DNA of 64,000 bases from assembly GCA_026395995.1 (NCBI GenBank), contig JAPLXQ010000010.1, forward strand, positions 69,296-133,295, in the 5' to 3' direction. Source of the DNA: Candidatus Nomurabacteria bacterium. Lineage in GTDB: Bacteria > Patescibacteriota > Minisyncoccia > Phycocordibacterales > UBA9973. Position numbers and translations under genes: made by a program. Below the pieces are notes generated by a model, which saw only the letters and a program-made list of their open reading frames with translations, ran no database searches and was not told the origin of the DNA. Positions 5,924 through 50,903 of this stretch are shown in pieces (position 1 is the stretch's first letter; every line of letters begins with the position of its first letter).

Positions 5924-6024
5924 TGGTTGTTTTTATCTTTTAGATATAGTATTGTAAAGAAAAATAACTAATACCTTAACAAATGAAAAGTGTGAAAAAT
6001 ACGACATTAAAAACAATGAATCAG

Positions 6025-7070
6025 ATGAAAGTCTGTATTTTTGGAATCCATGGACTAGTAGGTCAAAAGATAATTGAAGTTTTAAATGAAAGGTTCTTTA
6101 AAAATAAAGGTCTTTCAGAAGGTGATTTATCACCTGATAATATTATGCTTGTAGCGACAGATAAGTCGGTCGAAAATGGGGCTCGCTCTCATTTGATCGA
6201 TAGATTTCCTTTGACAAAAGGGTTGCCGATTATCAAAGCTATTGATGCAATTATTAAAAAACCAGATATCGTTCTGATGTCTGCTGGTTCGGAGGCTTCA
6301 AAAAAATGGGCAAAACAATTTGTAGAAGCCGGGTCTTATGTGATTGATAATTCTTCAGCTTGGAGAATGGATGACGATATTTCTTTGGTTATCCCTGGTG
6401 TCGCAGATTGGGGTGTGGGTGGAAGTATCCAACTCATTTCGAATCCAAATTGTGTGGCCATAATGGTAGCGACAGCTATCGCACCTCTGATACCTTTTGA
6501 TATGAGTGTCGTAGCTGTGGTGGCTTTGCAGTCGGCCTCTGGTGCTGGAGCTAAAGGACTTGAAGTTTTAGATTTTGAAGAACAGATGAATGAGAGACTG
6601 GCGACACCAAATGTTTTTCCTGGTAAATTGTACAACAATATTCTTCCGGCTTCAGGAAAATTTTCGAGTGAACTTTATAACGAAGAAGAGGAAAAGGGTA
6701 TTCATGAAATACGAAAAATATTTCGGAAAAATGATTTTAAAATATCTTTTCGATCGTTGAGGTATCCTGTGCCATACGGCCATGTAGCTAGTCTTAGAAT
6801 TAAATTTAAAGAAATTGTTTCTTTGGAAAAAATTCGAAACGCTTTAGCTATTGGTAACAATATTAAATATCAACTCGAACCATTTAATCTTGAAGGTGAT
6901 GTACTTGGTCATAATGAGTGTTTTGTTTTTTTGGGGGGGTGCGCCACGATCGAAACAATCATAAGGTGATTGAGATGATGGTAATGTCTGATAATCTTCG
7001 CCTTGGTGCTGCAGCAAACGCTGTTTCTATTATGGAAAAACTTATTGAAAATAAATTGATTCGTTTTTAA
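6025..7070 (+). CDS. asd: aspartate-semialdehyde dehydrogenase with an apparent frameshift in the homopolymer tract at 6934..6950
   Basis: MKVCIFGIHGLVGQ Rossmann N-terminus and SNPNCVAIMVATAIAPL active-site Cys motif. The ORF ends at 6969, but the conserved Asd C-terminus (VMSDNLRLGAAANAVSIMEKL) continues in another frame to 7070 after the tract. Confidence 0.65.
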
Positions 7071-7074
7071 CAAA

Positions 7075-7106
7075 AAAGCCCTGAACATTCGGGGCTTTTA
7101 TTTTTT
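7075..7106 (+). terminator. Rho-independent terminator after asd
   Basis: AAGCCCtgaacattcGGGGCTT followed by TTATTTTTT. Confidence 0.65.
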
Positions 7107-7129
7107 ATAAATATATAGTAGTATAAATA

Positions 7130-7311
7130 TACGAGCGTTGAAGGGCCCTTCCATGACAGTCAGGACAGGGATATCACCCTGGAGCTTTGGGAAGAAACCT
7201 CTAAAAAGGTAGTAGAACCCATTAAATGAGAAGTAAACAAGGTGGTACCACGATGAGAAACTCGTCCTTGTATAGCAATTTAATTATTGTTGTACGCGGA
7301 CGAGTTTTTTT
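7130..7311 (+). promoter_or_regulatory. T-box riboswitch leader, Ile specifier AUC, upstream of ileS
   Basis: Specifier loop cagggatATCAccctg with AUC at 7173..7175 followed by the conserved purine. T-box sequence AACAAGGTGGTACCACG at 7236..7252 (UGGU bulge to pair tRNA ACCA). Terminator CTCGTCC...GGACGAG plus T7 at 7261..7311. Confidence 0.6.
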
Positions 7312-7331
7312 AATTTTAATTTAATAAATAT

Positions 7332-10300
7332 ATGGAAGAAAAAAATAACACAAATAAATCAGAAGTAGCACTTCGTGAAGAAGCAGTTTTAGAATTTTGG
7401 AAAGAAAATGATATTTTCCAAAAAACTTTAAATAAAAAAGAAAATCCAAGAGGTGATTATATATTTTTCGATGGTCCGCCTACTGCGAATGGTATGCCAG
7501 GAATTCACCACATGGAAGCTCAAGCCTTCAAAGATGTCATGCCTCGTTATAAAACAATGAGAGGTTTTCATGTACCTAGAAAAGCTGGATGGGATACTCA
7601 CGGTCTTCCTGTGGAATTACAAGTAGAAAAAGCTCTCGGTTTGAAATCAAAAAAAGAAATTGAAAAATATGGTGTGGAACTTTTTAATCAAAAGTGTAAA
7701 GAAAGTGTTTGGAAATATCGAGATGAATGGATAAAATCACGTCAAAGAATGGGGTATTGGGTAGATATGGATAATGCTTATGTAACTTATAAAAATGATT
7801 ACATTGAAGCACTTTGGGGAGTAGTAGCAAAAGCCAATGATCGCGGACATTTATACAAAGACTTCAAAGTTCTTCCGTGGTGTACTCGTTGTGGAACAGC
7901 ACTTTCCAGTCACGAGCTTTCTCAACCAGGAGCATATAAAGATGTAAAGGATCTTTCAGTCTATGTGAAATTTAAAATAAAAGGTTTTGAAAATGGATAC
8001 TTTTTAGCTTGGACGACGACACCTTGGACTTTGCCTGGAAACGTGGGGCTAGCAGTCGGTAATGATTTTACTTATGTAGAAGCTAAAGTTGGTAATGATA
8101 TTTTGGTTCTTGCGAAAGAAAGATTAGAAATGATTACTGAGCCATACGAAATAATAGCAGAACATAAAGGTAGTGAAATGATTGGTATGGAATATGAACC
8201 ACTGTTTCCATATTTGAAAAATAATATAGAGAGTGATGTACGGACACAAATAGAAAATCTAAAAAACGCATTTAAAATTTATGGTGCAGATTTTGTGACG
8301 ACGACAGATGGTACAGGAATAGTACACACAGCAGTGATGTATGGAGCAGATGATTTTGACCTCGGTACAAAAGTTAACTTACCTAAATATCATACAGTAA
8401 ACGAAGAGGGAAGATTTGTTGCGGGTACTGATTTCCTCGAGGGACGATATGTAAAAGAAGCTGATGAGAATGGTAAGCCTACACTCGCGGTAGACATAAT
8501 AGACAATCTCACTGGCCGTGGACTTTTATTTAAAAAAGAAAATCACATGCACAGTTATCCGCATTGTTGGCGTTGTGATACACCGCTCATTTATTATGCG
8601 AGAACTTCTTGGTATTTCCGTATGAGTGCACTTCGTGATCAACTCCTAGCAGGAAATGAAAATATAAATTGGGAACCAAAACATATAAAAGAAGGACGTT
8701 TTGGTGAATGGCTCGACGGTATCAAGGATTGGGCTATTTCTCGTGATCGTTATTGGGGGACGCCGTTACCTATCTGGCAGAAGGCTGATGGAAGTTATAA
8801 AACTATTTCATCTCTTTTAGATTTGAAAAAATATACAAAGAAATCTGGAAATAAATATTTCATAATGCGCCACGGTGAGACAGAAGCCAATAAAAAAGGA
8901 ATTATTTGTTCATTACCTTCTGGTAAATGGCATCTAGATGAAGACGGAAAGAGGCAAGTAAATGAAACAGCTGAAAAATATAAAGATCAAAAAATTGATT
9001 TGATTTTTACTTCAGATTTTACTCGTACTCAAGAAACGGCAGAAATAATGGCTGATAAACTTGGATTAAATTCTGATCAAATTATCGTAGACCAAAGACT
9101 TCGTGAAATAGGTGCTTATTCTTTTGATGGAAAAAGTTGGAATGAATATCACGAGTATCATACAAAAACAGTTGAGAATTTCAACAAGCGTGTAAATGAA
9201 GATGAATCATATGAAGATGTAAAAATTCGTGTCACTTCTTTCCTTTATGAAATAGAAGAAAAATATAAAGATAAAAATATTTTATTTGTGACACATGGTG
9301 GACCAGCATGGTTGCTATTTGCTGGGGCTGAAGGTAAAGACCCAAAAGAAACATTAGACATGGTAATAGATAAGAAAGACTATCATTATTTCCAAAATGC
9401 AGAAATAAAAGAATTAAATTTTACTCCATTGCCACACAATGAAAAATTCGAATTAGATTTTCATAAACCATTTATTGATAATGTTGTATTAGAAAATAAC
9501 GGAGAAACACTTACTCGTACTTCAGAAGTGATGGACGTATGGTTCGACTCTGGGTCTATGCCTTATGCACAGGGTCATATACTTGGAGAAGAAATGAATT
9601 TCTCTCCCGCTAAAGCTGATTTTATTTCTGAAGGACTCGATCAGACTCGTGGTTGGTTTTATACTTTGCACGCTGTTTCAAATTTACTTTCAGACAAACC
9701 AAGTAATGCATATAACAATGTAATTTGTCTCGGGCTTATTCTGGATGCGAATGGACTCAAAATGTCCAAGTCTCGTGGTAATGCTGTAGACCCTTGGGCT
9801 ATGTTTGAAAAATATGGAGCAGACACTATTCGTCTCTGGATGTATTCTGTGAATCAGCCAGGGGAGTCAAAGAATTTTGACGAACGAACTGTGATGGAAC
9901 TTCACAGACAAGTTTTCGGACTTTTGTATAACATAGTTTCTTTTTATGAACTTTACCGAGACCATGACTTAGAAAGGTCTTTCCTTGAGGAGGAACATAG
10001 TGACGGGAAGGGTAAGTCCTTGCTAAGTCAGAACGTACTCGATATTTGGATTCTCGCTAGACTAAACGAATTAACAAAAAATGTTACAGAAAATTTGGAT
10101 GGCTACAAAACACTTGAACCAGTGCGCGCTATTCGTGATTTCATCGATGATTTATCTACATGGTATCTCCGTCGTTCACGTGAGAGAATTAAAGAAGGTG
10201 ATAAAAATGCAAAAGTTACTTTGTATTATGTTTTGAAAAACTTAACAAAACTTATGGCACCATTTGCACCATTTGCTAGTGAAGATATTTATCGAAAATT

Positions 10301-10862
10301 AAGAAATGAAAATGAGCCGGAATCTGTGCATCTTTGTGAATGGCCTAAATTCGAGGTTCTAGTTTCTAGTGATGAGGTTCTAGTGAAAATGCAGAAAACA
10401 AGAGACATTGTTTCTGTGGGATTAAAAGAGAGACAGAAATCAGGAATACCTGTGCGTCAGGTTTTGGGTAGTGTAAAGGTTCTTGTTGAAAAATTAGATA
10501 CTGAATACATTGATTTAATAAAAGAAGAATTGAACGTCAAAGAAGTAATACTAGAACCTAGCAACTCGAACCTAGAAACTAGTGTCGTACTCGACACAGT
10601 TATAACCCCTGAACTCAAAGAAGAAGGGAACTATCGCGAACTCGTTCGCGCTATTCAAGACATGCGTAAAAAAGCCGGACTTACTCCTTCAGACATAATT
10701 TCTCTTTCTATAGAAACTGATGAAATAGGAAAATCATTAATTCAAAAATTCGAAGCTGATTTCAAGAAAACTATTCTAATAAATGAAGTAAAATTTGAAA
10801 ATAACAGTGGGGAAGAGGTAAAAGTAGGCGCTTTAAATTTCAAAGTTAGTATTCTTAAATAA
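7332..10862 (+). CDS. ileS: isoleucyl-tRNA synthetase (type 2-like) carrying an inserted histidine-phosphatase domain at about 8790..9420
   Basis: HMEAQAF (HIGH-like), KMSKS, WAISRDRYWGTPLPIW and DVWFDSGSMPYAQ class-I editing aaRS motifs. The insert carries RHGETEAN, TRTQETAEI and VTHGG, the signature of the phosphoglycerate-mutase-like histidine phosphatase family. Confidence 0.85.
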   Translation: MEEKNNTNKSEVALREEAVLEFWKENDIFQKTLNKKENPRGDYIFFDGPPTANGMPGIHHMEAQAFKDVMPRYKTMRGFHVPRKAGWDTHGLPVELQVEKALGLKSKKEIEKYGVELFNQKCKESVWKYRDEWIKSRQRMGYWVDMDNAYVTYKNDYIEALWGVVAKANDRGHLYKDFKVLPWCTRCGTALSSHELSQPGAYKDVKDLSVYVKFKIKGFENGYFLAWTTTPWTLPGNVGLAVGNDFTYVEAKVGNDILVLAKERLEMITEPYEIIAEHKGSEMIGMEYEPLFPYLKNNIESDVRTQIENLKNAFKIYGADFVTTTDGTGIVHTAVMYGADDFDLGTKVNLPKYHTVNEEGRFVAGTDFLEGRYVKEADENGKPTLAVDIIDNLTGRGLLFKKENHMHSYPHCWRCDTPLIYYARTSWYFRMSALRDQLLAGNENINWEPKHIKEGRFGEWLDGIKDWAISRDRYWGTPLPIWQKADGSYKTISSLLDLKKYTKKSGNKYFIMRHGETEANKKGIICSLPSGKWHLDEDGKRQVNETAEKYKDQKIDLIFTSDFTRTQETAEIMADKLGLNSDQIIVDQRLREIGAYSFDGKSWNEYHEYHTKTVENFNKRVNEDESYEDVKIRVTSFLYEIEEKYKDKNILFVTHGGPAWLLFAGAEGKDPKETLDMVIDKKDYHYFQNAEIKELNFTPLPHNEKFELDFHKPFIDNVVLENNGETLTRTSEVMDVWFDSGSMPYAQGHILGEEMNFSPAKADFISEGLDQTRGWFYTLHAVSNLLSDKPSNAYNNVICLGLILDANGLKMSKSRGNAVDPWAMFEKYGADTIRLWMYSVNQPGESKNFDERTVMELHRQVFGLLYNIVSFYELYRDHDLERSFLEEEHSDGKGKSLLSQNVLDIWILARLNELTKNVTENLDGYKTLEPVRAIRDFIDDLSTWYLRRSRERIKEGDKNAKVTLYYVLKNLTKLMAPFAPFASEDIYRKLRNENEPESVHLCEWPKFEVLVSSDEVLVKMQKTRDIVSVGLKERQKSGIPVRQVLGSVKVLVEKLDTEYIDLIKEELNVKEVILEPSNSNLETSVVLDTVITPELKEEGNYRELVRAIQDMRKKAGLTPSDIISLSIETDEIGKSLIQKFEADFKKTILINEVKFENNSGEEVKVGALNFKVSILK

Positions 10863-11006
10863 TTGACAATTAATTTAAAAGTAATATCATATAAGTGTAT
10901 GAATATAAATTTTGTATTAAAAACAAAGAAGTCAAAGAAACTCTCAATCGAGGGCTCTTTTGCTTCATAATTTAGATACAACTTTCTCAAGTCAGTCTAT
11001 AAGCAA

Positions 11007-11035
11007 AAAGTCCCCCTCGATGGGGGCTTTTGTTT
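11007..11035 (+). terminator. Rho-independent terminator after ileS
   Basis: AGTCCCCCtcgatGGGGGCT followed by TTTTGTTT. Confidence 0.6.
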
Positions 11036-11465
11036 CGTAGTCTGACTCTTGTGTAGAAATTTTCCACCTAAAAGCCAGATTACCAAACAGTGTGCTTTGG
11101 TAAGGACTGGGATTAGTTATTTAACAATAAAATCAAAATAGGATGAAAAAAATCAACACATTTTTTCGGTTTATTATGTCTTTCTTTAAAAAGAAACAAA
11201 ATAAAAAAGTAGCAACATCACAAGAAAAACCATCTTTTCATCCAAATGATCCATTTGGTGAGGGGTGGAGCGGGCAAATATAATTTTGCTCGCTTTTTCT
11301 GTTTAGATAAGATAAATTGACTTTTTATATAAAATACTTTATAATAATTCAAATTCTAAGGTTCTTCGAAAATGTTATTTTTGTTGTATTCGTTTGAGTT
11401 ACTTTGTATTCCTATATGGAATTTAAGGTAATTCAAATTAATATTAACAATTAAAACCTATAAAA

Positions 11466-12305
11466 ATGAAAAATAATACTATCGAAAAAACGGTTTTCTC
11501 TATCAATGAACTTTTAGAGAGAAAAAAAGAAAATGAAGATTTATATATTCAAGATGAATTAAGATCTTTAATTAGTGACATATTTAAAAGCCCGAAAGAT
11601 GCTGCGGAGTTCTTTTCCAAAGAAGTTAAATCTACTCTAAAAAAAATTATCTGTATGGATAAAAGTACGGGTGCGTACAGTCTATATAAGTATTTGAAAG
11701 AAAGCGATTTTTCTTTTTCTGAAGGGCTTCTCATGTATGCAATAGACAATGAACCTTATTATAACAATAATGACAGTGCTTTCGTTTATTACTTATTAAA
11801 AGCTGTGCATAAAACAGAATTAGAAAAAAGTGTAACACTTTTTGTAAATCAAACTCTTCTCTTAGAAGGACATTTTTGGGATTATAAAGAGATATTTATA
11901 AATTCATACGAGTTGCACAGAAAAAATCTAATTCCTCAAATTCCTCAAAATATAGAAAGAGAAATAATTCATTCTGTAAGTACAGGTCAGCATCATCACC
12001 GCAAAATGAAAGCAATAGCTACTTCTGTTTTCTTGGGTATACAGGGAGCAACGCCTCATATTTTAAACACTTTCCTCTCAAAAGTAAGAGAGGTGATTAA
12101 AATGAAAGAGCAAGGAGAAATTAAAGTTAACTACAACATAAATAATTCAGTTCAAAATTTGGGATTTGTTCTGTATTGTTTAACTAATGAAGAAAAATAT
12201 AAGGAGTTAAGCATTTGCCCAACTGACGGACTATTTGACGGGGACGATGTAAGAATACCAATCTTTAACACTATATATGAAACTATTAAAAAATATAATT
12301 ATTAA
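11466..12305 (+). CDS. hypothetical protein
   Basis: 279-aa ORF. No family recognised. Confidence 0.4.
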   Translation: MKNNTIEKTVFSINELLERKKENEDLYIQDELRSLISDIFKSPKDAAEFFSKEVKSTLKKIICMDKSTGAYSLYKYLKESDFSFSEGLLMYAIDNEPYYNNNDSAFVYYLLKAVHKTELEKSVTLFVNQTLLLEGHFWDYKEIFINSYELHRKNLIPQIPQNIEREIIHSVSTGQHHHRKMKAIATSVFLGIQGATPHILNTFLSKVREVIKMKEQGEIKVNYNINNSVQNLGFVLYCLTNEEKYKELSICPTDGLFDGDDVRIPIFNTIYETIKKYNY

Positions 12306-15811: not shown

Positions 15812-16786
15812 ATGAATAAAAAAGTCTTTATAACAAGGAAAATTCCAGACCTCGGAATTACAATGTTAAAAAATAAGGGTTATGAGGTAGATGTTTATCC
15901 AAAGAATAAAATAATGTCTCAGAAGGAGCTGGTATCTGTTCTTAAAAAGAAAGATTATGATGCTGTTTTGTGTTTATTGACCGATAAAATAGATGCTAAG
16001 ATTTATAGTGCTGCACCAAACACAAAGTTGTACGTGAACTATGCGACCGGCTTTGATAATTTAGATTTGGCTGAAGCTAAAAAACGTGGAATTTTGATTG
16101 CCAATGCTCCTGCCGATTTAGCCTCAGAAGCTGTCGCCGAGCATGCTCTCGTAATGATGCTAGCTCTTGCAGCGAGAATTGTCGAAGCCGATGATTTTGT
16201 TCGTCGTGGAAAGTATAAAGGTTGGGATCCGATGCATTTTATCGGTACAGATATTTTAGGGAAAACTCTCGGTCTTGTCGGTGCTGGTAGAATAGGGGAA
16301 CGAGTAGCTTTTTATGCAAAAGGGTTAGGAATGAAAATAATCTATACTGATGTCACAAAAAATTCTAGGATTGAAGAATCGGTCGGTGCAGAATACGTTT
16401 CTTCTATTGAAGAACTTTTACCAAAAGCTGATCTTGTGAGTTTGCATGTTCCACTACTTGATTCGACAAAGCACCTGATGAATGAAAAACATTTTAAGAT
16501 GATGAAATCGACTGCTTTTTTAGTAAATACTTCTCGTGGCCCTGTCGTTGATGAAAAAGCTCTCGTAAAAGCTTTGAAAGAAAAAGTTATTGCTGGAGCC
16601 GGTCTTGATGTTTTTGAGTTTGAACCAAAATTGGTTTCTGGTTTAGCAAAACTTAATAATGTTATTTTGACACCACACATAGGTTCAGCCAGTGTCGAAG
16701 CACGCAATCAAATGGCTGAGGTCGCAGTAAATAATATAATAGATTTTTTTGAAGGAAAACTTCCAAAGAATATTGTAAATAAATAA
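15812..16786 (+). CDS. D-isomer-specific 2-hydroxyacid dehydrogenase (D-lactate / glycerate / hydroxypyruvate reductase-like)
   Basis: [16 protein letters not shown]-binding motif and the catalytic region LHVPL ... [10 protein letters not shown] ... HIGSAS. Confidence 0.7.
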
Positions 16787-16790
16787 AAAT

Positions 16791-18218
16791 ATGAATGGAA
16801 AATTAATTATCGCAAGGCATGAAGAATCAGAATGGAATAAACTCGGCAAATGGACTGGTTCTGTGAATATTGGTTTAACTGGTGAAGGCTTTAATCAGTC
16901 CAGAAAAATGGGTGAACTCATTCGTGGTATTCCTATGGATCAAGCTTTTGCTTCAGCGCAAATCAGATCACTTGAAACACTTCTTTGTATGGAGGACGAC
17001 ATTTGTATTGATTTACCGATTACTCGATCCGATGCTTTAAATGAAAGAGATTATGGTGATTATACTGGAAAAAATAAATGGGAAATGAAAGATATTCTAG
17101 GCGAAGAAGAGTTTGATAAGCTTCGTCGTGATTGGGATTATTCTGTGCCAAATGGTGAGACTTTGAAAATGGTTTATGAAAGAATTGTGCCATACTACCT
17201 AAACACTATTTTGCCAATCTTAAAAGAAGGGAAGACCGTGCTTCTCGTCGCTCACGGAAATTCTTTGCGAGCCTTGATGAAATATTTAGAAAATATTTCT
17301 GATGAAAACATCTCTCATTTAGAAATGCTTTTTGATACTGTAGTAATTTATGAAATAAATGAAGAAGGAAAAATGGTTAGTAAGGAAGAGAGACATTTGC
17401 CAGCCATAAAAAATGATACAAAAAAGGTTGCACAAATTGTCGCAACGATTGGAATAAATTCTGGAAATAGAGAAACTCTTTTAGAATTGTTTAAAAATGG
17501 TATGAATATTGCTCGTTTGAATTTTTCTTGGTCTAGCCTAGATTGGCATGCAGAAAAAATAGCTTTAATTAAAGCTTCAGCCAAAGAGGCTGGAAAAAAT
17601 ATTTTGATTATTCAGGATTTACCAGGACCTAGAATTCAAGAAGAACATGGGCATACATATGACAAGACTACGACTTTCGATATGACAGAGCAAGATAAAA
17701 ATTTTGTGAAATTTGGTGTCGAGCAAGAGGTAGACTACACAGCACTTTCATTTGTCGGTAGTAAAAAAGAAATATTAGAATGTCGTGAACTTATAAAAAG
17801 TCTTGGTGGTACACAAAAAATAATTGCGAAAGTAGAGAGAAAAATCGCCGTCGATAACCTCGAAGAAATTATTTCTTCGGCTGATGCAGTGATGGTAGCC
17901 AGGGGAGATCTGGGCGATGAATTTCCACTTGAACAAGTTCCATTTATACAAGATAAAATTATTAAAGCTTGTAATAAGGCTGGTAAGCCCGTAATCACTG
18001 CTACACAAATGATGCTGTCGATGACAAATAGTCCGACGCCGACACGTGCTGAAGTAACAGATGTTTACTCTGCAATCTCACAAGGTAGCGATGCAGTAAT
18101 GCTTTCAGAAGAAACAGCCACAGGTAAATATCCAGTCGAAGCTGTGACTATGATGGAGAAAATTATTCTAGAAGCCGAAAGCCATATGACTAGTGATAAA
18201 AAATTAAATCTTTTGTAA
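16791..18218 (+). CDS. fusion of 2,3-BPG-dependent phosphoglycerate mutase (N-terminal) with a minimal pyruvate kinase A-domain (C-terminal)
   Basis: N-terminus: [15 protein letters not shown] and [13 protein letters not shown] (dPGM). C-terminus: [10 protein letters not shown] ... [10 protein letters not shown] ... IIAKVE ... [12 protein letters not shown] ... [20 protein letters not shown] ... [32 protein letters not shown] (pyruvate kinase), but with no B-domain lid and no C-terminal regulatory domain. Confidence 0.75.
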
Positions 18219-18575: not shown

Positions 18576-18839
18576 ATGCTTAATGCTATTTTCTCTAAAA
18601 ACTTTAAAAAATCTTTCAAAAAGAAAGATAAAATTATTCAAGAAAAAGTAAAAATACGCATTAGACTCTTTAGAGAAGATCCAAATAATTTAATTTTAAA
18701 TAATCATAAACTTTCAGGTGAGTATGAGGGTTGTAGTAGTATAAATATAACTGGTGATTATAGAGTAGTTTTTGAATTTCTTGATAAAAATACTGTGAAC
18801 TTAGTAGATATCGGAACTCATTCAGAATTGTATGAGTAA
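18576..18839 (+). CDS. yafQ: type II toxin, YafQ/RelE family
   Basis: NHKLSGEYEGCSSINITGDYRVVFEF ... VDIGTHSELY matches the YafQ/RelE mRNA-interferase core. Confidence 0.6.
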   Translation: MLNAIFSKNFKKSFKKKDKIIQEKVKIRIRLFREDPNNLILNNHKLSGEYEGCSSINITGDYRVVFEFLDKNTVNLVDIGTHSELYE

Positions 18840-18868
18840 TGATAAAAATTAAATCTTTTGTAAAAATT

Positions 18869-20122
18869 ATGACAAAAATAAAAAAAGTTACGGGGAGGGA
18901 AATAATAGATTCACGGGGGAATCCGACTGTCGAAGTCGAGTGTGAACTTGAGAGTGGGGCAGTGGCTGTGGCGGGTGTGCCGTCTGGGGCGAGTACAGGA
19001 ATACATGAAGCTTTGGAATTGCGAGATGCAGATAAGGCTAGGTACAACGGCCTCGGAGTTTTGAATGCAGTAAATAATGTAAACACAATAATCAATGAAA
19101 ATATTTCTGGAAAAGAATTTGATCAGAAATCTTTAGATGAGGCATTGATAAATTTAGATGGAACAAAAAATAAATCCAAACTCGGAGCGAATGCAATACT
19201 CGGTGTGTCGCTCGCTTTTGCTCGTGCAGTCGCAAATGAAAAGAAAATAAATTTATATGAATATTTAGGGAGCTTAGTAGGGAATACAGAATATGCTTTA
19301 CCCGAGCCGATGTTTAATGTTATCAATGGTGGTAAACATGCCGACAGTGGACTCGACATTCAAGAATTTATGATTATCCCTGTCGGTATAAAAACTTTTA
19401 AAGAAAAAGTCCGTGTAGTTTCAGAAGTGATTTCAGCTTTGAAAAAAGTTTTAGTGGAAAAAGGATTTGGTGTCGGAGTAGGGGATGAAGGTGGCTTTGC
19501 ACCAAAACTCGCTTCCAATGAAGAAGCTTTTGATATTTTAATTATGGCGATACAAAATGCTGGTTATACTACAGAGCAAATAAAGATCGGTATTGATGCT
19601 GCAGCATCTAGCTTCTTCTTCGAGGGAATGTATAAATTAAAAATAGCAGGGGAGGAGAAAAGTTTTAATACCGATGAAATGATAGCTTGGTATGAAAAGC
19701 TCGTATCTACATACCCGATAATTTCTATCGAAGATGGACTCGACGAAGAAGACTGGGCGGGATTTGTATCATTAAATAAAAAACTCGGAGACAAGATAAA
19801 AATAATAGGGGATGACCTTCTTGTGACGAATATAGAAAAAATCCAAAAAGCTATTTCAGAAAATGCTGTGAATTCTGTTTTGATAAAATTGAATCAAATC
19901 GGAACTTTGTCTGAGACAATCGACGCAATACAAATGACTAAAAAACAAAATTGGAACGCTATCGTTTCGCACCGTTCAGGGGAGACAAATGATACATTTA
20001 TCGCCGACCTTGCCGTAGGACTATCATGTGGTTACATAAAATCTGGCTCACTAACCCGCGAAGAAAGAGTCTGTAAATATAATCGTTTGATGGAGATAGA
20101 AGAGAATTTACTATCTAAATAA
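18869..20122 (+). CDS. eno: enolase
   Basis: MTKIKKVTGREIIDSRGNPTVEVE N-terminus and SHRSGETNDTFIADLAVG active-site motif. Confidence 0.9.
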   Translation: MTKIKKVTGREIIDSRGNPTVEVECELESGAVAVAGVPSGASTGIHEALELRDADKARYNGLGVLNAVNNVNTIINENISGKEFDQKSLDEALINLDGTKNKSKLGANAILGVSLAFARAVANEKKINLYEYLGSLVGNTEYALPEPMFNVINGGKHADSGLDIQEFMIIPVGIKTFKEKVRVVSEVISALKKVLVEKGFGVGVGDEGGFAPKLASNEEAFDILIMAIQNAGYTTEQIKIGIDAAASSFFFEGMYKLKIAGEEKSFNTDEMIAWYEKLVSTYPIISIEDGLDEEDWAGFVSLNKKLGDKIKIIGDDLLVTNIEKIQKAISENAVNSVLIKLNQIGTLSETIDAIQMTKKQNWNAIVSHRSGETNDTFIADLAVGLSCGYIKSGSLTREERVCKYNRLMEIEENLLSK

Positions 20123-20128
20123 AAATTG

Positions 20129-20215
20129 CGGAGGATGTGAGATTCGAACTCACGGACCCTTTTACAGGTCGGCGGTTTAGTAAACCGCTAGTTTAAACCA
20201 CTCACTCAATCCTCC
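20129..20215 (-). tRNA. type II (long variable arm) Ser-like tRNA with anticodon loop UUACUAA (anticodon ACU, i.e. A34)
   Basis: Acceptor GGAGGAT/ATCCTCC, D-loop with GG, anticodon stem GCGGU/ACCGC, long variable arm, T-arm GTGAG-TTCGAAT-CTCAC, discriminator G. Same architecture as the tRNA-Ser(GCU) copies but G34 to A. Confidence 0.55.
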
Positions 20216-21313: not shown

Positions 21314-21402
21314 GGAACCGTGTCTGAGCGGTCTAAGGTACCTCTTTGCTAAAGAGGCAGGGGCTTTAAAACCCCTCGCGAGTTCGAATCTCGCCGGTTC
21401 CG
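21314..21402 (+). tRNA. tRNA-Ser(GCU), copy 1
   Basis: Acceptor GGAACCG/CGGTTCC, anticodon arm CCTCT-TTGCTAA-AGAGG, long variable arm, T-loop TTCGAAT, discriminator G. Confidence 0.75.
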
Positions 21403-21423
21403 CAACAAATCTAAACCCAAATC

Positions 21424-23885: not shown

Positions 23886-23974
23886 TGGAACCGTGTCTGA
23901 GCGGTCTAACGTACCTCTTTGCTAAAGAGGCAGGGGCTTTAAAACCCCTCGCGAGTTCGAATCTCGCCGGTTCC
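23886..23974 (+). tRNA. tRNA-Ser(GCU), copy 2 (2 mismatches to copy 1)
   Basis: 89 nt, same cloverleaf as 21314..21402. Differs only at taaggt/taacgt in the D-region. Confidence 0.75.
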
Positions 23975-24012
23975 GCTTGTAATAATTTTATACATTTAAC
24001 GGCAATAATAAT

Positions 24013-45288: not shown

Positions 45289-45822
45289 ATGAATCTTTTT
45301 CTAAAAATATTTAAGACTTCAAAAAATTTAATTTCTGTAAAAGATATTAATTCTGAAAAAACAGAAATAATTGAAGTTGGTGAAAAAATAAATAAAAAAA
45401 TAAAAAAACTATTTAATGGTTCTTTGGCTATTCGGCAAGTAGATGCTGGTTCAGATAATGCTTGTGAACAAGAACTTGTTGCGCTATCAAATGCTTTTTA
45501 TGACGTTGAGCGTTTTGGTATACATTTTGTAGCTTCTCCAAGACATGCCGATATGCTCATGGTTACTGGTCCTGTAACACGTAATATGGCTGAAGCCCTA
45601 AAAAGGGCATATGAAGCGACACCAGAACCAAAAATAATAATTGCTGTCGGAGATGATGCAATAAATGGTGGTATATATAAAGATTCTTATGCTGTTGTTG
45701 GTGGTGTTGATTCTGTGATACCTGTTCATTATCAAATTCCTGGTGATCCACCAAGTCCAAAAGTTATTTTATTTCATCTTTTAAATATTCTTGAAATTAT
45801 TGAGAATAAAAAATTAATTTAA
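45289..45822 (+). CDS. NuoB / group-4 [NiFe]-hydrogenase small-subunit homologue lacking three of the four [4Fe-4S] Cys ligands
   Basis: SPRHADMLMVTGPVTRNMAEAL ... EPKIIIAVGDDAINGG ... PGDPPSP. CC(A/V)E becomes ACEQE, GxCxxxGG becomes GDDAINGG, PGCPP becomes PGDPP. Confidence 0.7.
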   Translation: MNLFLKIFKTSKNLISVKDINSEKTEIIEVGEKINKKIKKLFNGSLAIRQVDAGSDNACEQELVALSNAFYDVERFGIHFVASPRHADMLMVTGPVTRNMAEALKRAYEATPEPKIIIAVGDDAINGGIYKDSYAVVGGVDSVIPVHYQIPGDPPSPKVILFHLLNILEIIENKKLI

Positions 45823-45827
45823 ATATT

Positions 45828-47876
45828 ATGATAAATTTTATTACATCAGAATTTAGTTTTGAGATTTTGTTTTTACTTTTTAGTGTTGGGGCTATTGGTT
45901 CTCTGTTTTTAAATAAAAACGACAAATTGGCAAACTTCTGGAGTAGTTTCTTTTCAATCAGTAGCTCTATTTGGGGTTTGATAATATCTATCTGTGCTAT
46001 TTCTTTTGGACAAGATCTTCTTTTTTCTGTAGGTCATTCAGTCTTCTCTGTTTTTTCAGTGTCTTTTCATGTTGATAAATTATCTGCTTTTTTTATCTTT
46101 ATAATTTCTTTAATTTCTTTGTTTTGTTCTATTTATGGTATTGGTTATGTAAAGCATTTTTATAAAAAATATAATATTGGTGCTTTAGGGTTCTTTTATA
46201 ATACTTTTATTTTAGGAATGTTACTCGTCGTCTCATCTTCCAATGGAATATTTTTCCTTTTAGCTTGGGAATTGATGTCTCTAGCTTCTTATTTCCTTGT
46301 TGTTTACGATAGAAATGATGAAGAAAATATAAAAGCTGGTTTTTTATATTTTATAATGACTCATGTCGGTACTGCTTTTATTATATTGGCATTATTATTG
46401 TTGTATAAATTTACAGGCTCATTTGATTTTGATATTGTTAAATCAAACATGGGATTAGTTCCTCTATATATTAAAAATCTTGTTTTTATATTCTCAATAA
46501 TTGGTTTTGGCACAAAAGCAGGTATTGTACCTTTCCATGTTTGGCTTCCTAGCGCTCACCCAGCAGCACCTTCACATGTTTCAGCTTTAATGTCTGGGGT
46601 GATGATCAAGACAGGTATTTTTATGATGATCAAAATTTTTCTTGATATTCTTCAGCCAGTACCTGTTTGGTGGGGGCTTACTATTTTAGTTATTGGTTCT
46701 GTCTCTTCTTTGCTTGGAGTTTTATATGCACTTACAGAACATGATTTAAAAAGACTTTTGGCTTATCATAGTATTGAAAATATTGGTATTATTTTGCTTG
46801 GTCTTGGTAGTGCTCTTACTTTTACATCTCTCGGTTTACCAGCATTAGCATTACTTGGTCTTATTGCTGCACTTTTTCACACATTAAACCATGCCACATT
46901 TAAATCATTACTTTTCCTTAGTGCTGGTTCAGTAATTAGTCAAACACACACTAGAAATATGGAAGAATTTGGTGGTCTTATAAAATACATGCCACAGACA
47001 GCCTTCTTCTTTTTAATTGGTTCAATGGCGATATCAGCACTTCCTCCTTTTAATGGATTCTTTAGTGAATGGTTAACTTTTCAATCACTTTTCCAAGGTA
47101 TAATGTCCTTAGATTTTTATTCTAAAGGAATTTTTATTTTTGCAGTTGGTTCATTAGCCTTTACTGGGGGATTAGCTTTAGCTTGTTTCGTAAAAGCATT
47201 TGGTGCTACATTTTTAGCTCGTCCTAGAAGTGAAGAGGTTAAACATGCTAAAGAATCTTCCTTCTCTTTACTTTTTGGTATGGGAGCTTTAGCTTTATTG
47301 TCTTTAGTATTTGGTATTTTTTCTGGATACTTGGGATCTTTTTTTGAAAAGATAGCTAAGAGTTTTACTTTTGCTCAAAATGTTTTTTATCCATCTTTCT
47401 CTACTGACTCTATGTTAAAAGTCGGTAACAGTTTCTCTTCTGTTTCAGCCCCAGCTATTTTTATATTTTTTGCTATTATCTTTTTAATTGTTATTTTTGT
47501 GACTAAGTTTTTGATTAATAGAAATCAAAAAGTAACTATAAATTCTACTTGGGATTGTGGTACAGATTTGACTCCACGTATGGAAATTACTGCGACAGGA
47601 TTTTCTAGATCTATTATTGTTATTTTAAAAGGAATACTTCGACCAAATATTAAAAAAGAAATAGTATATAATGATGCCGGTAGTAAATATCTACCAAAAT
47701 CACGTTTTGTTATTTTGAGTATTAAAGATATATATCAAGCATATTTTTACACACCCTTACATAAAATTACAACTTTCCTTTCTTTGCAGATAAAAAAGAT
47801 ACAAAATGGAAATGTAAATTCTTATATTTTGTATATCTTTTTTGCATTAATAGTCACTTTATTTTTAGCGATATAA
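45828..47876 (+). CDS. NuoL/MrpA/HyfB-like antiporter-type membrane subunit
   Basis: LLAWELMSLASYFLV and VPFHVWLPSAHPAAPSHVSALMSGVMIKTG motifs. 682 aa. Confidence 0.7.
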   Translation: MINFITSEFSFEILFLLFSVGAIGSLFLNKNDKLANFWSSFFSISSSIWGLIISICAISFGQDLLFSVGHSVFSVFSVSFHVDKLSAFFIFIISLISLFCSIYGIGYVKHFYKKYNIGALGFFYNTFILGMLLVVSSSNGIFFLLAWELMSLASYFLVVYDRNDEENIKAGFLYFIMTHVGTAFIILALLLLYKFTGSFDFDIVKSNMGLVPLYIKNLVFIFSIIGFGTKAGIVPFHVWLPSAHPAAPSHVSALMSGVMIKTGIFMMIKIFLDILQPVPVWWGLTILVIGSVSSLLGVLYALTEHDLKRLLAYHSIENIGIILLGLGSALTFTSLGLPALALLGLIAALFHTLNHATFKSLLFLSAGSVISQTHTRNMEEFGGLIKYMPQTAFFFLIGSMAISALPPFNGFFSEWLTFQSLFQGIMSLDFYSKGIFIFAVGSLAFTGGLALACFVKAFGATFLARPRSEEVKHAKESSFSLLFGMGALALLSLVFGIFSGYLGSFFEKIAKSFTFAQNVFYPSFSTDSMLKVGNSFSSVSAPAIFIFFAIIFLIVIFVTKFLINRNQKVTINSTWDCGTDLTPRMEITATGFSRSIIVILKGILRPNIKKEIVYNDAGSKYLPKSRFVILSIKDIYQAYFYTPLHKITTFLSLQIKKIQNGNVNSYILYIFFALIVTLFLAI

Positions 47877-47878
47877 AT

Positions 47879-48805
47879 ATGAATATTTTAATTTGGATAA
47901 TTCAAATAGTTTTTATACCAATAATGTCACCATTGTGTGTCGGTATTATTAGAAAAATAAAAGCCAAACTTCAAAATAGAAAAGGGGCTAGTATTTTTCA
48001 ACCATATAATGATTTATGGAAACTCTTTAATAAAGATGAAGTTATCAGTAAAGATGCTTCTTGGGTTTTTAGATATGCCCCTTTTGTTATTTTTTCAGTG
48101 ACTATCTTTGTCGGTATGAGTGTTCCAATTTTTATGTCTTTTGTAAACAACACTTTTACTAGTGACATATTGGTAATTATTTATATGCTTGCATTGGGAA
48201 CATTTTTCTTGGCTCTTTCTGGTTTAGATACAGGTGGAGCTTTTGGTGGTTTTGGTTCAAGTCGTGAAATGACTATGTCTGCTTTAGCAGAAGGTGGTTT
48301 TATCTTCTCTCTTTTAACAATTTCTTTCATAGCTGGTACTACCAATCTATTGGCTATTTCTAATGTTGGAATTCTTCAACATGGACATTTGCTACTTTCA
48401 TCTATATTGGCTTTTATATCATTCTTCATAATATTATTAGCAGAAAATACAAGATATCCTTTTGATAATCCGTCTACTCACTTGGAATTAACTATGATTC
48501 ATGAAGCTATGATTTTAGAATATTCTGGAAAAAGATTAGCTCTTATTGAATGGGCATCTTCAAATAAACTTTTAATTTTTATTTCTTTGGGCTCCAGTTT
48601 GTTTTTCCCTTGGGGTATAGCTGGGGCACTTAGTTTAAGTGCGTTACTTTTCGGTTTATTTATTTTTTGTTTAAAGGTATTTATTTTTTGTTTAGCAATA
48701 GCTGTATTGGAATCAAGTATAGCAAAATTGCGATTCTTTAAATTACCTGATTTATTGTTGATAGCCTTTATTCTTAATGTGATAGCAATTATTTTAATTT
48801 TTTAA
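47879..48805 (+). CDS. NuoH/HyfC/EchB-like membrane subunit
   Basis: ENTRYPFDNPSTHLELTMIHEAMILEYSG conserved loop. Confidence 0.7.
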   Translation: MNILIWIIQIVFIPIMSPLCVGIIRKIKAKLQNRKGASIFQPYNDLWKLFNKDEVISKDASWVFRYAPFVIFSVTIFVGMSVPIFMSFVNNTFTSDILVIIYMLALGTFFLALSGLDTGGAFGGFGSSREMTMSALAEGGFIFSLLTISFIAGTTNLLAISNVGILQHGHLLLSSILAFISFFIILLAENTRYPFDNPSTHLELTMIHEAMILEYSGKRLALIEWASSNKLLIFISLGSSLFFPWGIAGALSLSALLFGLFIFCLKVFIFCLAIAVLESSIAKLRFFKLPDLLLIAFILNVIAIILIF

Positions 48806-48807
48806 TT

Positions 48808-49455: not shown

Positions 49456-49459
49456 ATTT

Positions 49460-50902: not shown

Positions 50903-50903
50903 T

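What the first reader, a model, noticed from the sequence alone, without database searches (positions are those of the whole stretch)
8790..9420. Isoleucyl-tRNA synthetase with a complete histidine-phosphatase domain inserted into its core
Between the conserved WAISRDRYWGTPLPIW and ...DFHKPFID...DVWFDSG segments, where type-2 IleS normally has a short Zn-binding linker, this ileS encodes about 200 extra residues. They carry the full signature of the phosphoglycerate-mutase-like histidine phosphatase superfamily: RHGETEAN (catalytic His/Arg), TRTQETAEI (second Arg), LREIGAYSFDGKSWNE (acid/base Glu region) and VTHGG (second His). All catalytic residues appear intact, so it is unlikely to be junk sequence. 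I am not aware of an aminoacyl-tRNA synthetase carrying such a domain. The same window also contains a second histidine phosphatase (dPGM) in another unusual fusion (16791..18218).
Basis: seen in the sequence. Interest (0 to 1): 0.72.

Follow-up and report, generated by a model that had tools for sequence, protein, structure and literature searches.

The report
Phosphatase domain inserted inside isoleucyl-tRNA synthetase
An essential protein-synthesis enzyme (isoleucyl-tRNA synthetase) of a tiny Candidatus Nomurabacteria bacterium carries a complete, apparently active phosphatase enzyme spliced into its middle; hundreds of related ultra-small bacteria share this design, which I could not find described in the searchable literature.

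Summary
ORF 7332..10862 (1176 aa) is a complete type-2 IleRS. About 200 extra residues (aa 501-707, nt 8832..9452) form a full histidine-phosphatase domain (Pfam His_Phos_1, E 1e-35; AF2 pLDDT 94.6). Its catalytic Arg-His...Arg...Glu...His set is invariant in 120 homologues.

It is not a misassembly. All 80 species genomes inspected (of at least 207 matched), all Parcubacteria/Paceibacteria, encode the same in-frame architecture.

New findings:
- The domain sits inside the second zinc knuckle, not in place of it.
- In sister lineages the same phosphatase subfamily is a separate gene directly upstream of an insert-less ileS.
- Elsewhere it is inserted at two further IleRS loops (up to three copies per IleRS; four in one ValRS fragment), at two sites in ValRS, and fused to the ArgRS C-terminus.

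So selection keeps this phosphatase attached to class Ia synthetases. It is not the glycolytic PGM; that role falls to a dPGM-pyruvate kinase fusion at 16791..18218. Its substrate is unknown. The closest folds are capped small-molecule phosphatases (PspA, GpgP, PhoE).

No paper describing it was found. Verdict: a real, widespread, undescribed bifunctional synthetase. Interest 0.76.

The parts
7332..10862 (+). ileS gene: 1176-aa type-2 isoleucyl-tRNA synthetase carrying the inserted domain. Identical to MCX6755331.1 of a Candidatus Nomurabacteria MAG.
7500..7511 (+). Class I signature motif in the non-canonical form G57-I-H-H60 (GxHH instead of HxGH).
   Evidence: Sequence 'PPTANGMPGIHHMEAQ'. 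106 of 120 homologues match a GxHH/AxHH pattern and none matches the canonical pattern. The motif variant is described in PMC10485003.
8010..8042 (+). Thr-rich motif of the CP1 editing domain (WTTTPWTLPGN, aa 227-237).
7881..7892 (+). First half of zinc site 1 (C184-x2-C187). Its partner C412-x2-C415 lies at 8565..8576. This zinc site is retained.
   Evidence: C184, C187, C412 and C415 are invariant.
8832..9452 (+). Inserted segment (aa 501-707), absent from insert-less Parcubacteria IleRS, where a loop of about 6 residues links the two halves of zinc knuckle 2.
   Evidence: Alignment with 30 insert-less IleRS: 230 residues against 30 between W482 and P713. Conserved junction motifs KKSGNKYF and F-x-PLPHN.
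8859..9371 (+). Histidine phosphatase (PGM-like, branch 1) domain, aa 510-680 by Pfam.
8868..8876 (+). RHG motif: R513, the predicted nucleophile H514, and G515.
   Evidence: Invariant in 105-121 sequences. Kept in all IleRS-embedded, stand-alone, ArgRS-fused and TsaC-fused copies examined, apart from one RHA in P0175.
9024..9026 (+). R565, the second phosphate-binding arginine.
   Evidence: Invariant.
9105..9107 (+). E592, the predicted general acid/base.
   Evidence: Invariant in IleRS homologues. Asp in two stand-alone relatives.
9294..9296 (+). H655, the second catalytic histidine (VTHGG).
   Evidence: Invariant.
9534..9554 (+). DVWFDSG (aa 735-741), start of helix alpha3 of the Rossmann (HUP) core. 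It resumes the IleRS catalytic fold after the insert.
   Evidence: Invariant D735, W737, D739, S740 and G741. Helix 736-741 in the AF2 model. Core topology as described in PMC10485003.
9759..9773 (+). KMSKS loop motif (aa 810-814).
   Evidence: Invariant K810-S814.
10041..10853 (+). Anticodon-binding domain (aa 904-1044) and type-2 C-terminal domain DUF5915 (aa 1082-1174).
   Evidence: Pfam PF08264 E 6e-30 and PF19302 E 2.6e-19.

Best explanation
The gene encodes a bifunctional enzyme.

The scaffold is a complete, presumably active type-2 IleRS. It has the GxHH variant of HIGH, KMSKS, the CP1 editing domain, the anticodon-binding domain and the type-2 C-terminus.

An autonomously folding histidine phosphatase of about 200 aa is grafted into the tip of the second zinc-knuckle hairpin, just before helix alpha3 (WFDSG) of the Rossmann core. 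It belongs to the short, capped PhoE/PspA/GpgP-like form of the PGM superfamily.

By homology the phosphatase should work by the family mechanism. H514 attacks a phosphomonoester to give a phospho-histidine intermediate. R513, R565 and H655 hold the phosphate. E592 protonates the leaving group and activates water.

Shown:
- The architecture is real and the fold is confident.
- The catalytic residues are invariant.
- The trait is fixed across Paceibacteria/Parcubacteria.
- The same phosphatase subfamily is recurrently linked to class Ia synthetases. It occurs as a separate gene abutting insert-less ileS, inserted at three IleRS loops and two ValRS loops, in up to three copies per IleRS (four in one ValRS fragment), and fused to the ArgRS C-terminus.

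Inferred:
- Selection acts on coupling the phosphatase to these synthetases, physically or through expression, not on one exact geometry.
- The substrate is a small phosphomonoester met at the synthetase rather than a protein. My leading guess is a nucleotide-derived or amino-acid-derived phosphate ester. That guess alone has a probability of about 0.3.

The domain is not the glycolytic phosphoglycerate mutase.
For: Architecture.

Catalytic residues: R513, H514, G515, R565, E592 and H655 are invariant in 105-121 homologues of 56-91% overall identity, although the insert as a whole is less conserved than the core (49% against 65%).

IleRS integrity: KMSKS, WFDSG, the editing motif and zinc site 1 are invariant.

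Lineage-wide: all 120 best homologues carry PF00300. At least 207 GTDB species genomes matched, and all 80 inspected have it in frame.

Linkage:
- Five stand-alone representatives of five with downstream DNA, and probably a sixth, lie 0-18 nt upstream of insert-less ileS.
- The reverse look-up of a Portnoybacteria IleRS finds the phosphatase overlapping it upstream.
- Alternative insertion sites B and C, and tandem or multiple copies, all keep the catalytic residues.
- 37 of 119 ValRS relatives carry the same subfamily.
- The ArgRS fusion was seen twice.

Not the glycolytic PGM: the insert scores 22 bits on TIGR01258 (cutoff 81.7). The window has a true dPGM-PK fusion beside enolase, only 29% identical to the insert over 79 aa.
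Against: - No activity data exist, and the substrate is unknown. No NCBIfam subfamily cutoff is reached (CobC 85/163, PspA 56/350, SixA 32/74.5).
- Some insert-less Parcubacteria ileS genes have no adjacent phosphatase (Kuenenbacteria; one Paceibacterota). One stand-alone copy showed no ileS in the 200 nt downstream. The linkage is therefore not universal.
- CPR operons mix housekeeping genes, so adjacency alone is weak evidence.
- Several ValRS-embedded copies have lost catalytic residues (R to V/A, E to G, H to S/Q). This shows the domain can persist without catalysis.
- One IleRS (P0191) also carries GNAT and transposase-like inserts, which suggests these loops simply tolerate insertions.
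- Site B lies on the alpha3-to-beta4 loop. By Rossmann topology that loop faces away from the active site. This is my inference, since no model coordinates were available, and it argues against direct substrate channelling.
Confidence: 0.62

Rival explanations
1. Metabolic hitch-hiker. The domain is an ordinary housekeeping phosphatase, for example the PspA-type phosphoserine phosphatase or another biosynthetic phosphatase. Its chemistry has nothing to do with aminoacylation. It ended up inside or next to synthetase genes in streamlined CPR genomes and gains only constitutive, growth-coupled expression.
For: - The top structural neighbours are metabolic phosphatases (PspA 4ij5/4ij6, GpgP, PhoE, riboflavin HFP).
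- A SerA-like D-2-hydroxyacid dehydrogenase lies in the window.
- CPR operons are heterogeneous, for example argS-phosphatase-ileS-recO.
- The IleRS loops also accept GNAT and transposase-like domains.
- The insertion sites differ in geometry.
Against: - Independent insertions of the same subfamily at three IleRS sites and two ValRS sites, with up to three copies per IleRS and four in a ValRS fragment, plus ArgRS fusions and tight adjacency to ileS, are hard to reach by neutral drift. All partners are class Ia synthetases.
- The junction residues SGN and PLPHN are as conserved as the catalytic residues, which suggests a fixed docking on IleRS.
- PspA and CobC family cutoffs are not reached.
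Confidence: 0.25
2. Non-catalytic module. The domain serves as a structural replacement for, or stabiliser of, the zinc knuckle, or as a sensor that binds a phosphorylated metabolite and tunes IleRS allosterically, without turnover.
For: - The window's clade has lost all four cysteines of zinc knuckle 2 while keeping the domain.
- Some ValRS-embedded copies have degenerate catalytic residues yet persist.
- The junctions are rigid and conserved, with high pLDDT.
Against: - In IleRS all five catalytic residues are invariant across about 120 homologues, and in deep representatives of 37-57% identity, while the rest of the domain drifts.
- 49 of 120 homologues keep both the zinc ligands and the domain, so it is not a replacement.
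- Stand-alone orthologues exist.
Confidence: 0.08
3. Artefact or selfish element. The insert is a chimeric assembly, or an intein-, intron- or transposon-like element that is removed before the mature enzyme is made.
For: - GC content is slightly lower in the insert (0.29-0.32) than in the flanks (0.35-0.41).
- One relative (P0191) carries a transposase-like domain elsewhere in IleRS.
Against: - The same in-frame architecture is found in 80 of 80 inspected species genomes and 120 protein clusters from NCBI, JGI, ENA and Logan, on contigs up to 808 kb.
- There are no flanking repeats and no Rfam intron hit.
- The only Pfam match in this stretch of the protein is His_Phos_1.
- The GC content is within the window's range.
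Confidence: 0.01
4. The domain is the organism's glycolytic cofactor-dependent phosphoglycerate mutase, moonlighting inside IleRS.
For: It belongs to the PGM superfamily. The archaeal dPGM model NF038349 gives 81-85 bits.
Against: - That score is below the cutoff of 225, and TIGR01258 gives 22 bits against a cutoff of 81.7.
- The window already encodes a bona fide dPGM fused to pyruvate kinase and adjacent to enolase.
- The domain is about 190 aa, against about 245 for the TIGR01258 dPGM model.
Confidence: 0.03

Closest known systems
Type-2 isoleucyl-tRNA synthetase (IleRS2), e.g. Priestia megaterium IleRS2 (PDB 8c8u/8c8w) and Thermus thermophilus IleRS (1ile)
   Same: - Same domain order, with the editing CP1 domain, KMSKS and the type-2 C-terminus.
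- It carries the GxHH signature-motif variant that Brkic et al. 2023 (PMC10485003) link to mupirocin hyper-resistance in IleRS2.
   Different: - About 200 extra residues form a second catalytic domain inside zinc knuckle 2, between SRxRxWGxP and WFDSG.
- The four cysteines of that knuckle are lost in the window's clade.
Short capped histidine phosphatases of the PGM superfamily: PspA phosphoserine phosphatase (4ij5), GpgP Rv2419c (4qih/6s2q), PhoE (1h2e), riboflavin-pathway HFP (9mmh), CobC
   Different: - Only 20-25% identity, and no subfamily model cutoff is reached.
- The known enzymes are free-standing. This one is embedded in, or genetically tied to, class Ia tRNA synthetases.
- The substrate is unknown.
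Bifunctional RNase H / acid phosphatase (Mycobacterium Rv2228c / RnhC; NCBIfam NF005567)
   Same: A nucleic-acid-processing enzyme covalently joined to a CobC-like histidine phosphatase. The insert matches the phosphatase half of this model at 69-73 bits. As far as I recall, the biological reason for that fusion is also unresolved.
   Different: - That protein is an end-to-end fusion, not an insertion into a catalytic core.
- The partner enzyme and the lineage differ.
- The score is far below the model cutoff of 326.
IleRS with an N-acetyltransferase domain (NCBIfam NF040702 ileS_w_GNAT)
   Same: A precedent that bacterial IleRS can carry an extra catalytic domain. One relative found here (P0191) has both a His_Phos and a GNAT domain in IleRS.
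   Different: The extra domain is of a different type. The window protein scores 321 bits against a cutoff of 1999, so it is not a member.
Histidine-phosphatase domain of yeast TFIIIC subunit tau55/Tfc7 (PDB 2yn0)
   Different: It is eukaryotic, part of a transcription factor, and much more distant. It is not fused to a synthetase.

Membership tests
Isoleucyl-tRNA synthetase, type 2 (TIGR00392 ileS; IleRS2) | Whole-protein score above the curated equivalog cutoff | tested here: met
   848.2 bits against a cutoff of 621.4, matched in two stretches interrupted at profile position 508.
Isoleucyl-tRNA synthetase, type 2 (TIGR00392 ileS; IleRS2) | Class I signature motifs HIGH and KMSKS | tested here: met
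   KMSKS is present at aa 810-814 and invariant. HIGH is present as the GIHH (GxHH) variant, which is documented as functional only in IleRS2.
Isoleucyl-tRNA synthetase, type 2 (TIGR00392 ileS; IleRS2) | CP1 editing domain with the Thr-rich motif | tested here: met
   [not shown]
Isoleucyl-tRNA synthetase, type 2 (TIGR00392 ileS; IleRS2) | Type-2 C-terminal organisation, without the IleRS1 C-terminal zinc-binding domain | tested here: met
   [not shown]
Isoleucyl-tRNA synthetase, type 2 (TIGR00392 ileS; IleRS2) | Charges tRNA-Ile with isoleucine | not testable with these tools
   Needs an aminoacylation assay. No second ileS was noticed among the window ORFs that were scanned. The whole genome was not available.
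Histidine phosphatase superfamily, branch 1 (Pfam PF00300) | Profile match above the gathering score | tested here: met
   123.4 bits (128.2 for the excised segment) against a cutoff of 21.7, covering profile positions 2-172 of 194.
Histidine phosphatase superfamily, branch 1 (Pfam PF00300) | Catalytic core: RHG nucleophile His, second Arg, Glu acid/base, second His | tested here: met
   R513, H514, G515, R565, E592 and H655 are all present and invariant in 105-121 homologues.
Histidine phosphatase superfamily, branch 1 (Pfam PF00300) | The alpha/beta/alpha fold of the superfamily | tested here: met
   [not shown]
Histidine phosphatase superfamily, branch 1 (Pfam PF00300) | Phosphomonoesterase or mutase activity through a phospho-His intermediate | not testable with these tools
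   Requires an enzyme assay.
Cofactor-dependent phosphoglycerate mutase (TIGR01258 pgm_1) | Subfamily score above cutoff | tested here: not met
   22.1 bits against a cutoff of 81.7. By contrast, the window's other His_Phos protein at 16791..18218 scores 146.7.
Alpha-ribazole phosphatase CobC (TIGR03162) | Equivalog score above cutoff | tested here: not met
   85-90 bits against a cutoff of 162.9.
PspA-type phosphoserine phosphatase (NF045917) | Equivalog score above cutoff | tested here: not met
   56-60 bits against a cutoff of 350. It is the nearest structural neighbour only.
Phosphohistidine phosphatase SixA (TIGR00249) | Equivalog score above cutoff, and the short uncapped form | tested here: not met
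   [not shown]
IleRS with GNAT domain (NF040702) | Exception-model score above cutoff; GNAT domain present | tested here: not met
   320.9 bits against a cutoff of 1999, and there is no acetyltransferase Pfam hit.
Mupirocin-resistant IleRS MupA / MupB (NF000257 / NF000258) | Exception-model score above cutoff | tested here: not met
   691 and 727 bits against a cutoff of 1900.

The most novel reading that the evidence does not exclude
The phosphatase is a dedicated third active site of class Ia aminoacyl-tRNA synthetases in Patescibacteria. It would perform a step unknown in other organisms that keeps the synthetase or its substrates usable. Candidates:
- clearing a phosphorylated by-product or nucleotide at the enzyme;
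- removing a terminal phosphate from damaged tRNA before charging;
- reversing inhibitory phosphorylation of the synthetase by toxin kinases (HipA-type kinases target class I synthetases, from my own knowledge);
- destroying a phosphate- or phosphoramidate-containing aminoacyl-adenylate mimic, as part of an antibiotic-resistance package together with the GxHH motif and, in some relatives, a GNAT domain.

The repeated, independent grafting of this one phosphatase subfamily onto IleRS, ValRS and ArgRS would then mark a new kind of synthetase accessory function.
Probability: 0.2. Interest if true: 0.92.

Novelty: new variant of a known kind. Interest (0 to 1): 0.76.

Why it matters
Aminoacyl-tRNA synthetases are among the best-studied enzymes. 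In bacteria they rarely carry extra catalytic domains.

Here a whole class of the Candidate Phyla Radiation makes its presumably only IleRS with a second, apparently active enzyme spliced into the catalytic core. At least 207 species-level genomes matched. Sister lineages do the same with ValRS, fuse the phosphatase to ArgRS, or keep it as a gene abutting ileS.

That pattern is a strong Rosetta-stone signal for an unknown functional link between a phosphatase and tRNA charging, in organisms with minimal genomes that are thought to live as symbionts.

There is also a practical consequence. NCBI names these proteins 'class I tRNA ligase family protein' rather than isoleucine--tRNA ligase. Automated reconstructions may therefore score IleRS, or ValRS, as missing.

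The domain is a defined, expressible unit of about 200 aa with an obvious catalytic-dead control (H514A), so the question can be tested directly.

Tried and rejected
- **Misassembly or chimera.** Rejected. The same in-frame architecture occurs in 80 of 80 inspected species genomes and in 120 clusters from four data sources.
- **Mobile element, intein or intron.** No flanking direct or inverted repeats beyond AT-rich chance matches. No Rfam family in 6500..11500. The only Pfam match in this stretch of the protein is His_Phos_1.
- **Glycolytic dPGM.** Rejected on family cutoffs and on the presence of a true dPGM-PK fusion in the window.
- **Defence-system component.** No PADLOC hit for the insert.
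- **Literature.** Eight full-text searches on combinations of IleRS/ValRS/aaRS with histidine phosphatase, PGM, Patescibacteria, CPR and Parcubacteria found nothing. Two recent IleRS evolution papers contain neither 'phosphatase' nor Patescibacteria in this context.
- **First genome scan.** The scan with a 26-sequence insert alignment failed because no stretch was conserved enough. It worked with 8 closer sequences.
- **TsaC fusion.** The metagenome scan for further TsaC-phosphatase fusions found none, only IleRS-embedded, ArgRS-fused or unclassified copies. The TsaC fusion (P0156) therefore remains a singleton on a 3.7-kb contig.
- **Geometry.** The relative orientation of the phosphatase and synthetic active sites could not be measured because model coordinates are not exposed.
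- **Trees.** The NJ trees are unbootstrapped and star-like. I use them only as hints.
- **Names for stand-alone copies.** The cluster look-up returned no organism names for the stand-alone phosphatases.
Full report
**1. The observation**

The window contains one long ORF, 7332..10862 on the + strand, encoding 1176 aa. Pfam finds the class I synthetase catalytic domain split in two (PF00133, E 7.5e-111). It also finds Anticodon_1 and the type-2 C-terminal DUF5915. Between the two halves of the catalytic domain lies His_Phos_1, PF00300, at aa 510-680 (E 1.2e-35, 123 bits against a gathering score of 21.7).

The NCBIfam ileS equivalog scores 848 bits (cutoff 621) and is interrupted at profile position 508. 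Solved IleRS structures align in two blocks, query 13-500 and 691-1086. Nothing from any IleRS aligns to the stretch between them.

Compared with 30 insert-less Parcubacteria IleRS, the extra segment is aa 501-707 (nt 8832..9452): 230 residues where relatives have 30.

**2. It is not an artefact**

The protein is identical to MCX6755331.1 of a Candidatus Nomurabacteria MAG, on a 287-kb contig. All 120 best homologues (56-91% identity; NCBI, JGI, ENA and Logan; contigs up to 808 kb) carry PF00133 plus PF00300.

In all 80 loci kept, a single in-frame IleRS reading frame runs through the insert, at 39-98% identity to the query. The record names are Nomura-, Zambryski-, Yonath-, Vogel-, Taga-, Taylor-, Wolfe- and Adlerbacteria, Paceibacterota and Minisyncoccia. 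Many records of one bulk TPA set are titled 'uncultured Candidatus Saccharibacteria', a label I would treat with caution.

There are no flanking repeats and there is no intron-like RNA. The insert is somewhat lower in GC (0.29-0.32) than its flanks (0.35-0.41), but this lies within the window's range.

**3. Anatomy**

The HIGH motif is the non-canonical GIHH. 106 of 120 homologues have G/AxHH and none matched the canonical pattern. Brkic et al. 2023 showed that this swap occurs naturally only in IleRS2 and gives mupirocin hyper-resistance (PMC10485003).

The insert sits in the loop of the second zinc knuckle, which precedes helix alpha3 of the Rossmann core. Insert-less relatives read W-x-C-x2-C...(about 6-residue loop)...C-x-C...DVWF. 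49 of 120 insert-bearing homologues keep both Cys pairs around the domain, while the window's clade has lost them ('WQKADGS...LENNGE').

The junctions (KKSGNKYF; F-x-PLPHN) are as conserved as the catalytic residues and are modelled with pLDDT of about 94-95. This suggests a fixed docking in this lineage.

**4. The domain**

- the riboflavin-pathway HFP;
- CobC.

These score above the protein phosphatases SixA (17.2), PGAM5 (15.3) and tau55 (14.7). Sequence identity to all of them is 20-25%, and no NCBIfam subfamily cutoff is reached.

R513, H514, G515, R565, E592 and H655 are invariant in 105-121 homologues. Overall the insert is less conserved than the core (49% against 65% mean identity to the query). 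That is the signature of a working active site.

It is not the glycolytic mutase. It scores 22 bits on TIGR01258 (cutoff 81.7). The window also encodes a true dPGM (147 bits) fused to a pyruvate-kinase barrel, next to enolase. The two phosphatase domains are only 29% identical over 79 aa.

**5. The wider pattern (new)**

I searched 1.84 billion representative proteins with the insert alone. The best 150 hits were mostly IleRS (whole proteins or fragments, 37-57% identical over the whole IleRS) plus about 45 stand-alone proteins of 185-210 aa.

*Stand-alone genes next to ileS.* All five stand-alone representatives with downstream DNA (P0150, P0164, P0183, P0204, P0253), and probably a sixth (P0199), lie 0-18 nt upstream of an insert-less ileS. 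The usual order is argS-phosphatase-ileS-(x)-recO. Starting instead from an insert-less Portnoybacteria IleRS gives the same phosphatase, overlapping ileS upstream by 19 nt. A Kuenenbacteria IleRS and one Paceibacterota IleRS lack it. One stand-alone copy on a 1-kb contig has no ileS in the 200 nt downstream.

*Other insertion sites and copy numbers in IleRS.* The canonical site in the zinc knuckle, used by the window protein, is site A.
- Site B lies between WFDSG and DQTRGWF (P0244, P0175, P0234, P0190).
- Site C lies after KMSKS and before the anticodon-binding domain (P0175, P0234, P0190).
- Tandem pairs occur at site A (P0226, P0268).
- P0190 has copies at A, B and C.
- All complete copies keep the catalytic residues.
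- P0175 sits on a 28.6-kb contig.

*ValRS.* ValRS of Moran-/Magasanikbacteria-like lineages carries the same subfamily in 37 of 119 close relatives, on contigs up to 914 kb. It is inserted either before or after DTWFSS. Some of these copies have degenerate catalytic residues. A ValRS fragment (P0128) carries four copies.

*Other fusions.* ArgRS fused at its C-terminus to the domain was seen twice (P0212; L100, followed by insert-less ileS). A TsaC (threonylcarbamoyl-AMP synthase) fusion was seen once only (P0156).

*Trees.* A rough NJ tree puts all these copies in one family, far from the window's dPGM. A rough NJ tree of IleRS cores nests the insert-less clade among insert-bearing lineages. 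Neither tree is bootstrapped, so the direction of change (insertion or fission) stays open.

**6. Interpretation**

What is shown is a real, fixed, bifunctional architecture with an intact phosphatase active site, and a recurrent association of one phosphatase subfamily with class Ia synthetases. The association is genetic (adjacent genes) or covalent (fusions and insertions).

What I infer:
- Selection favours keeping the phosphatase with these synthetases.
- Because the sites differ, precise channelling from the synthetic site is unlikely. Site B is on the alpha3-to-beta4 loop, which in a Rossmann fold faces away from the active site. This is my inference from the topology. The varying copy number points the same way.
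- Because the nearest folds are capped small-molecule phosphatases, the substrate is more likely a small phosphomonoester than a protein.

My best single guess is a nucleotide- or amino-acid-derived phosphate ester linked to the charging reaction, and it is weak (about 0.3).

The main rival (0.25) is a housekeeping metabolic phosphatase, for example a PspA-type phosphoserine phosphatase, that merely hitch-hikes on constitutively expressed genes. A non-catalytic role (0.08) is suggested by loss of the zinc ligands and by the degenerate ValRS copies. It is contradicted for IleRS by the invariant catalytic set.

More adventurous readings are not excluded, but nothing here supports them directly. 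They include tRNA-end repair, reversal of toxin-kinase phosphorylation, and destruction of adenylate-mimic antibiotics alongside GxHH and, in P0191, a GNAT domain.

**7. Novelty**

Eight full-text searches gave no paper that describes a synthetase with a histidine-phosphatase domain. Two recent IleRS evolution and structure papers do not mention it.

Databases hold the sequences under generic names: NCBI uses 'class I tRNA ligase family protein', and one JGI entry reads 'valyl-tRNA synthetase/broad specificity phosphatase PhoE'.

Accessory domains on synthetases are a known theme, with precedents in NCBIfam ileS_w_GNAT and in the RNase H-CobC fusion of mycobacteria. I therefore rate this a new variant of a known kind. 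It is an unusually widespread and well-replicated one.

Noticed in passing
window 16791..18218 (+), with 15812..16786 and 18839..20122: A 475-aa fusion of a bona fide dPGM (aa 5-195; TIGR01258 147 bits against a cutoff of 81.7) to a pyruvate-kinase barrel. By length it seems to lack the usual C-terminal PK domain. It is annotated simply 'pyruvate kinase' (MCX6755337.1). It lies between a D-2-hydroxyacid dehydrogenase (SerA-like) and enolase, so three lower-glycolysis steps are clustered and two of them are fused.
   Followed up: partly
window 7500..7511: The IleRS HIGH motif is the swapped form GIHH. 106 of 120 homologues have G/AxHH. In IleRS2 this swap is reported to give mupirocin hyper-resistance (PMC10485003). 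This would make a whole CPR class intrinsically resistant.
   Followed up: partly
P0393-P0490 (ValRS relatives of P0235); P0128: ValRS of Moranbacteria/Magasanikbacteria-like Patescibacteria carries the same phosphatase subfamily, at two alternative sites (37 of 119 relatives). Several copies have lost catalytic residues (VHS or AHG instead of RHG; E to G; H to S/Q). One ValRS fragment has four copies.
   Followed up: partly
P0212; L100:1504-3546 followed by ileS at about 3576: ArgRS fused at its C-terminus to the same phosphatase, seen in two independent contigs. In L100 it is directly followed by an insert-less ileS.
   Followed up: partly
P0156 (387 aa, 3.7-kb Logan contig): TsaC/Sua5-type threonylcarbamoyl-AMP synthase fused to the same phosphatase subfamily. 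It is a single occurrence and was not replicated in a metagenome scan.
   Followed up: partly
P0191 (1066 aa): An IleRS carrying three foreign domains: a REP-associated tyrosine transposase (IS200-like) domain inside the editing region (NF047646, 81 bits against a cutoff of 80), the His_Phos domain at site A, and a GNAT acetyltransferase after WFDSG. It could be a chimera, or evidence that these loops are insertion hot-spots.
   Followed up: no
NCBI names: Insert-bearing IleRS is named 'class I tRNA ligase family protein', while insert-less relatives are named 'isoleucine--tRNA ligase'. Pipelines that rely on product names may report IleRS (and ValRS) as absent in these genomes.
   Followed up: no
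window 20128..20215 (-), 21314..21403 (+), 23887..23976 (+): Three tRNA-Ser genes lie within 4 kb. Two are near-identical tRNA-Ser(GCU) copies (89 of 90 nt) 2.5 kb apart. The third is called with the unusual anticodon ACU (A34).
   Followed up: no
window 45289..52478: A cluster of Mrp-antiporter/NuoL-like membrane subunits and a fused 30-kDa/49-kDa complex-I-like (NuoC/NuoD or group-4 hydrogenase-like) protein. This is unexpected in a metabolically minimal Parcubacteria genome.
   Followed up: no
window 5983..6969: An aspartate-semialdehyde-dehydrogenase-like gene lies about 360 nt upstream of ileS. The argS-phosphatase-ileS-recO order of the split-gene lineages is not present in this window.
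   Followed up: no
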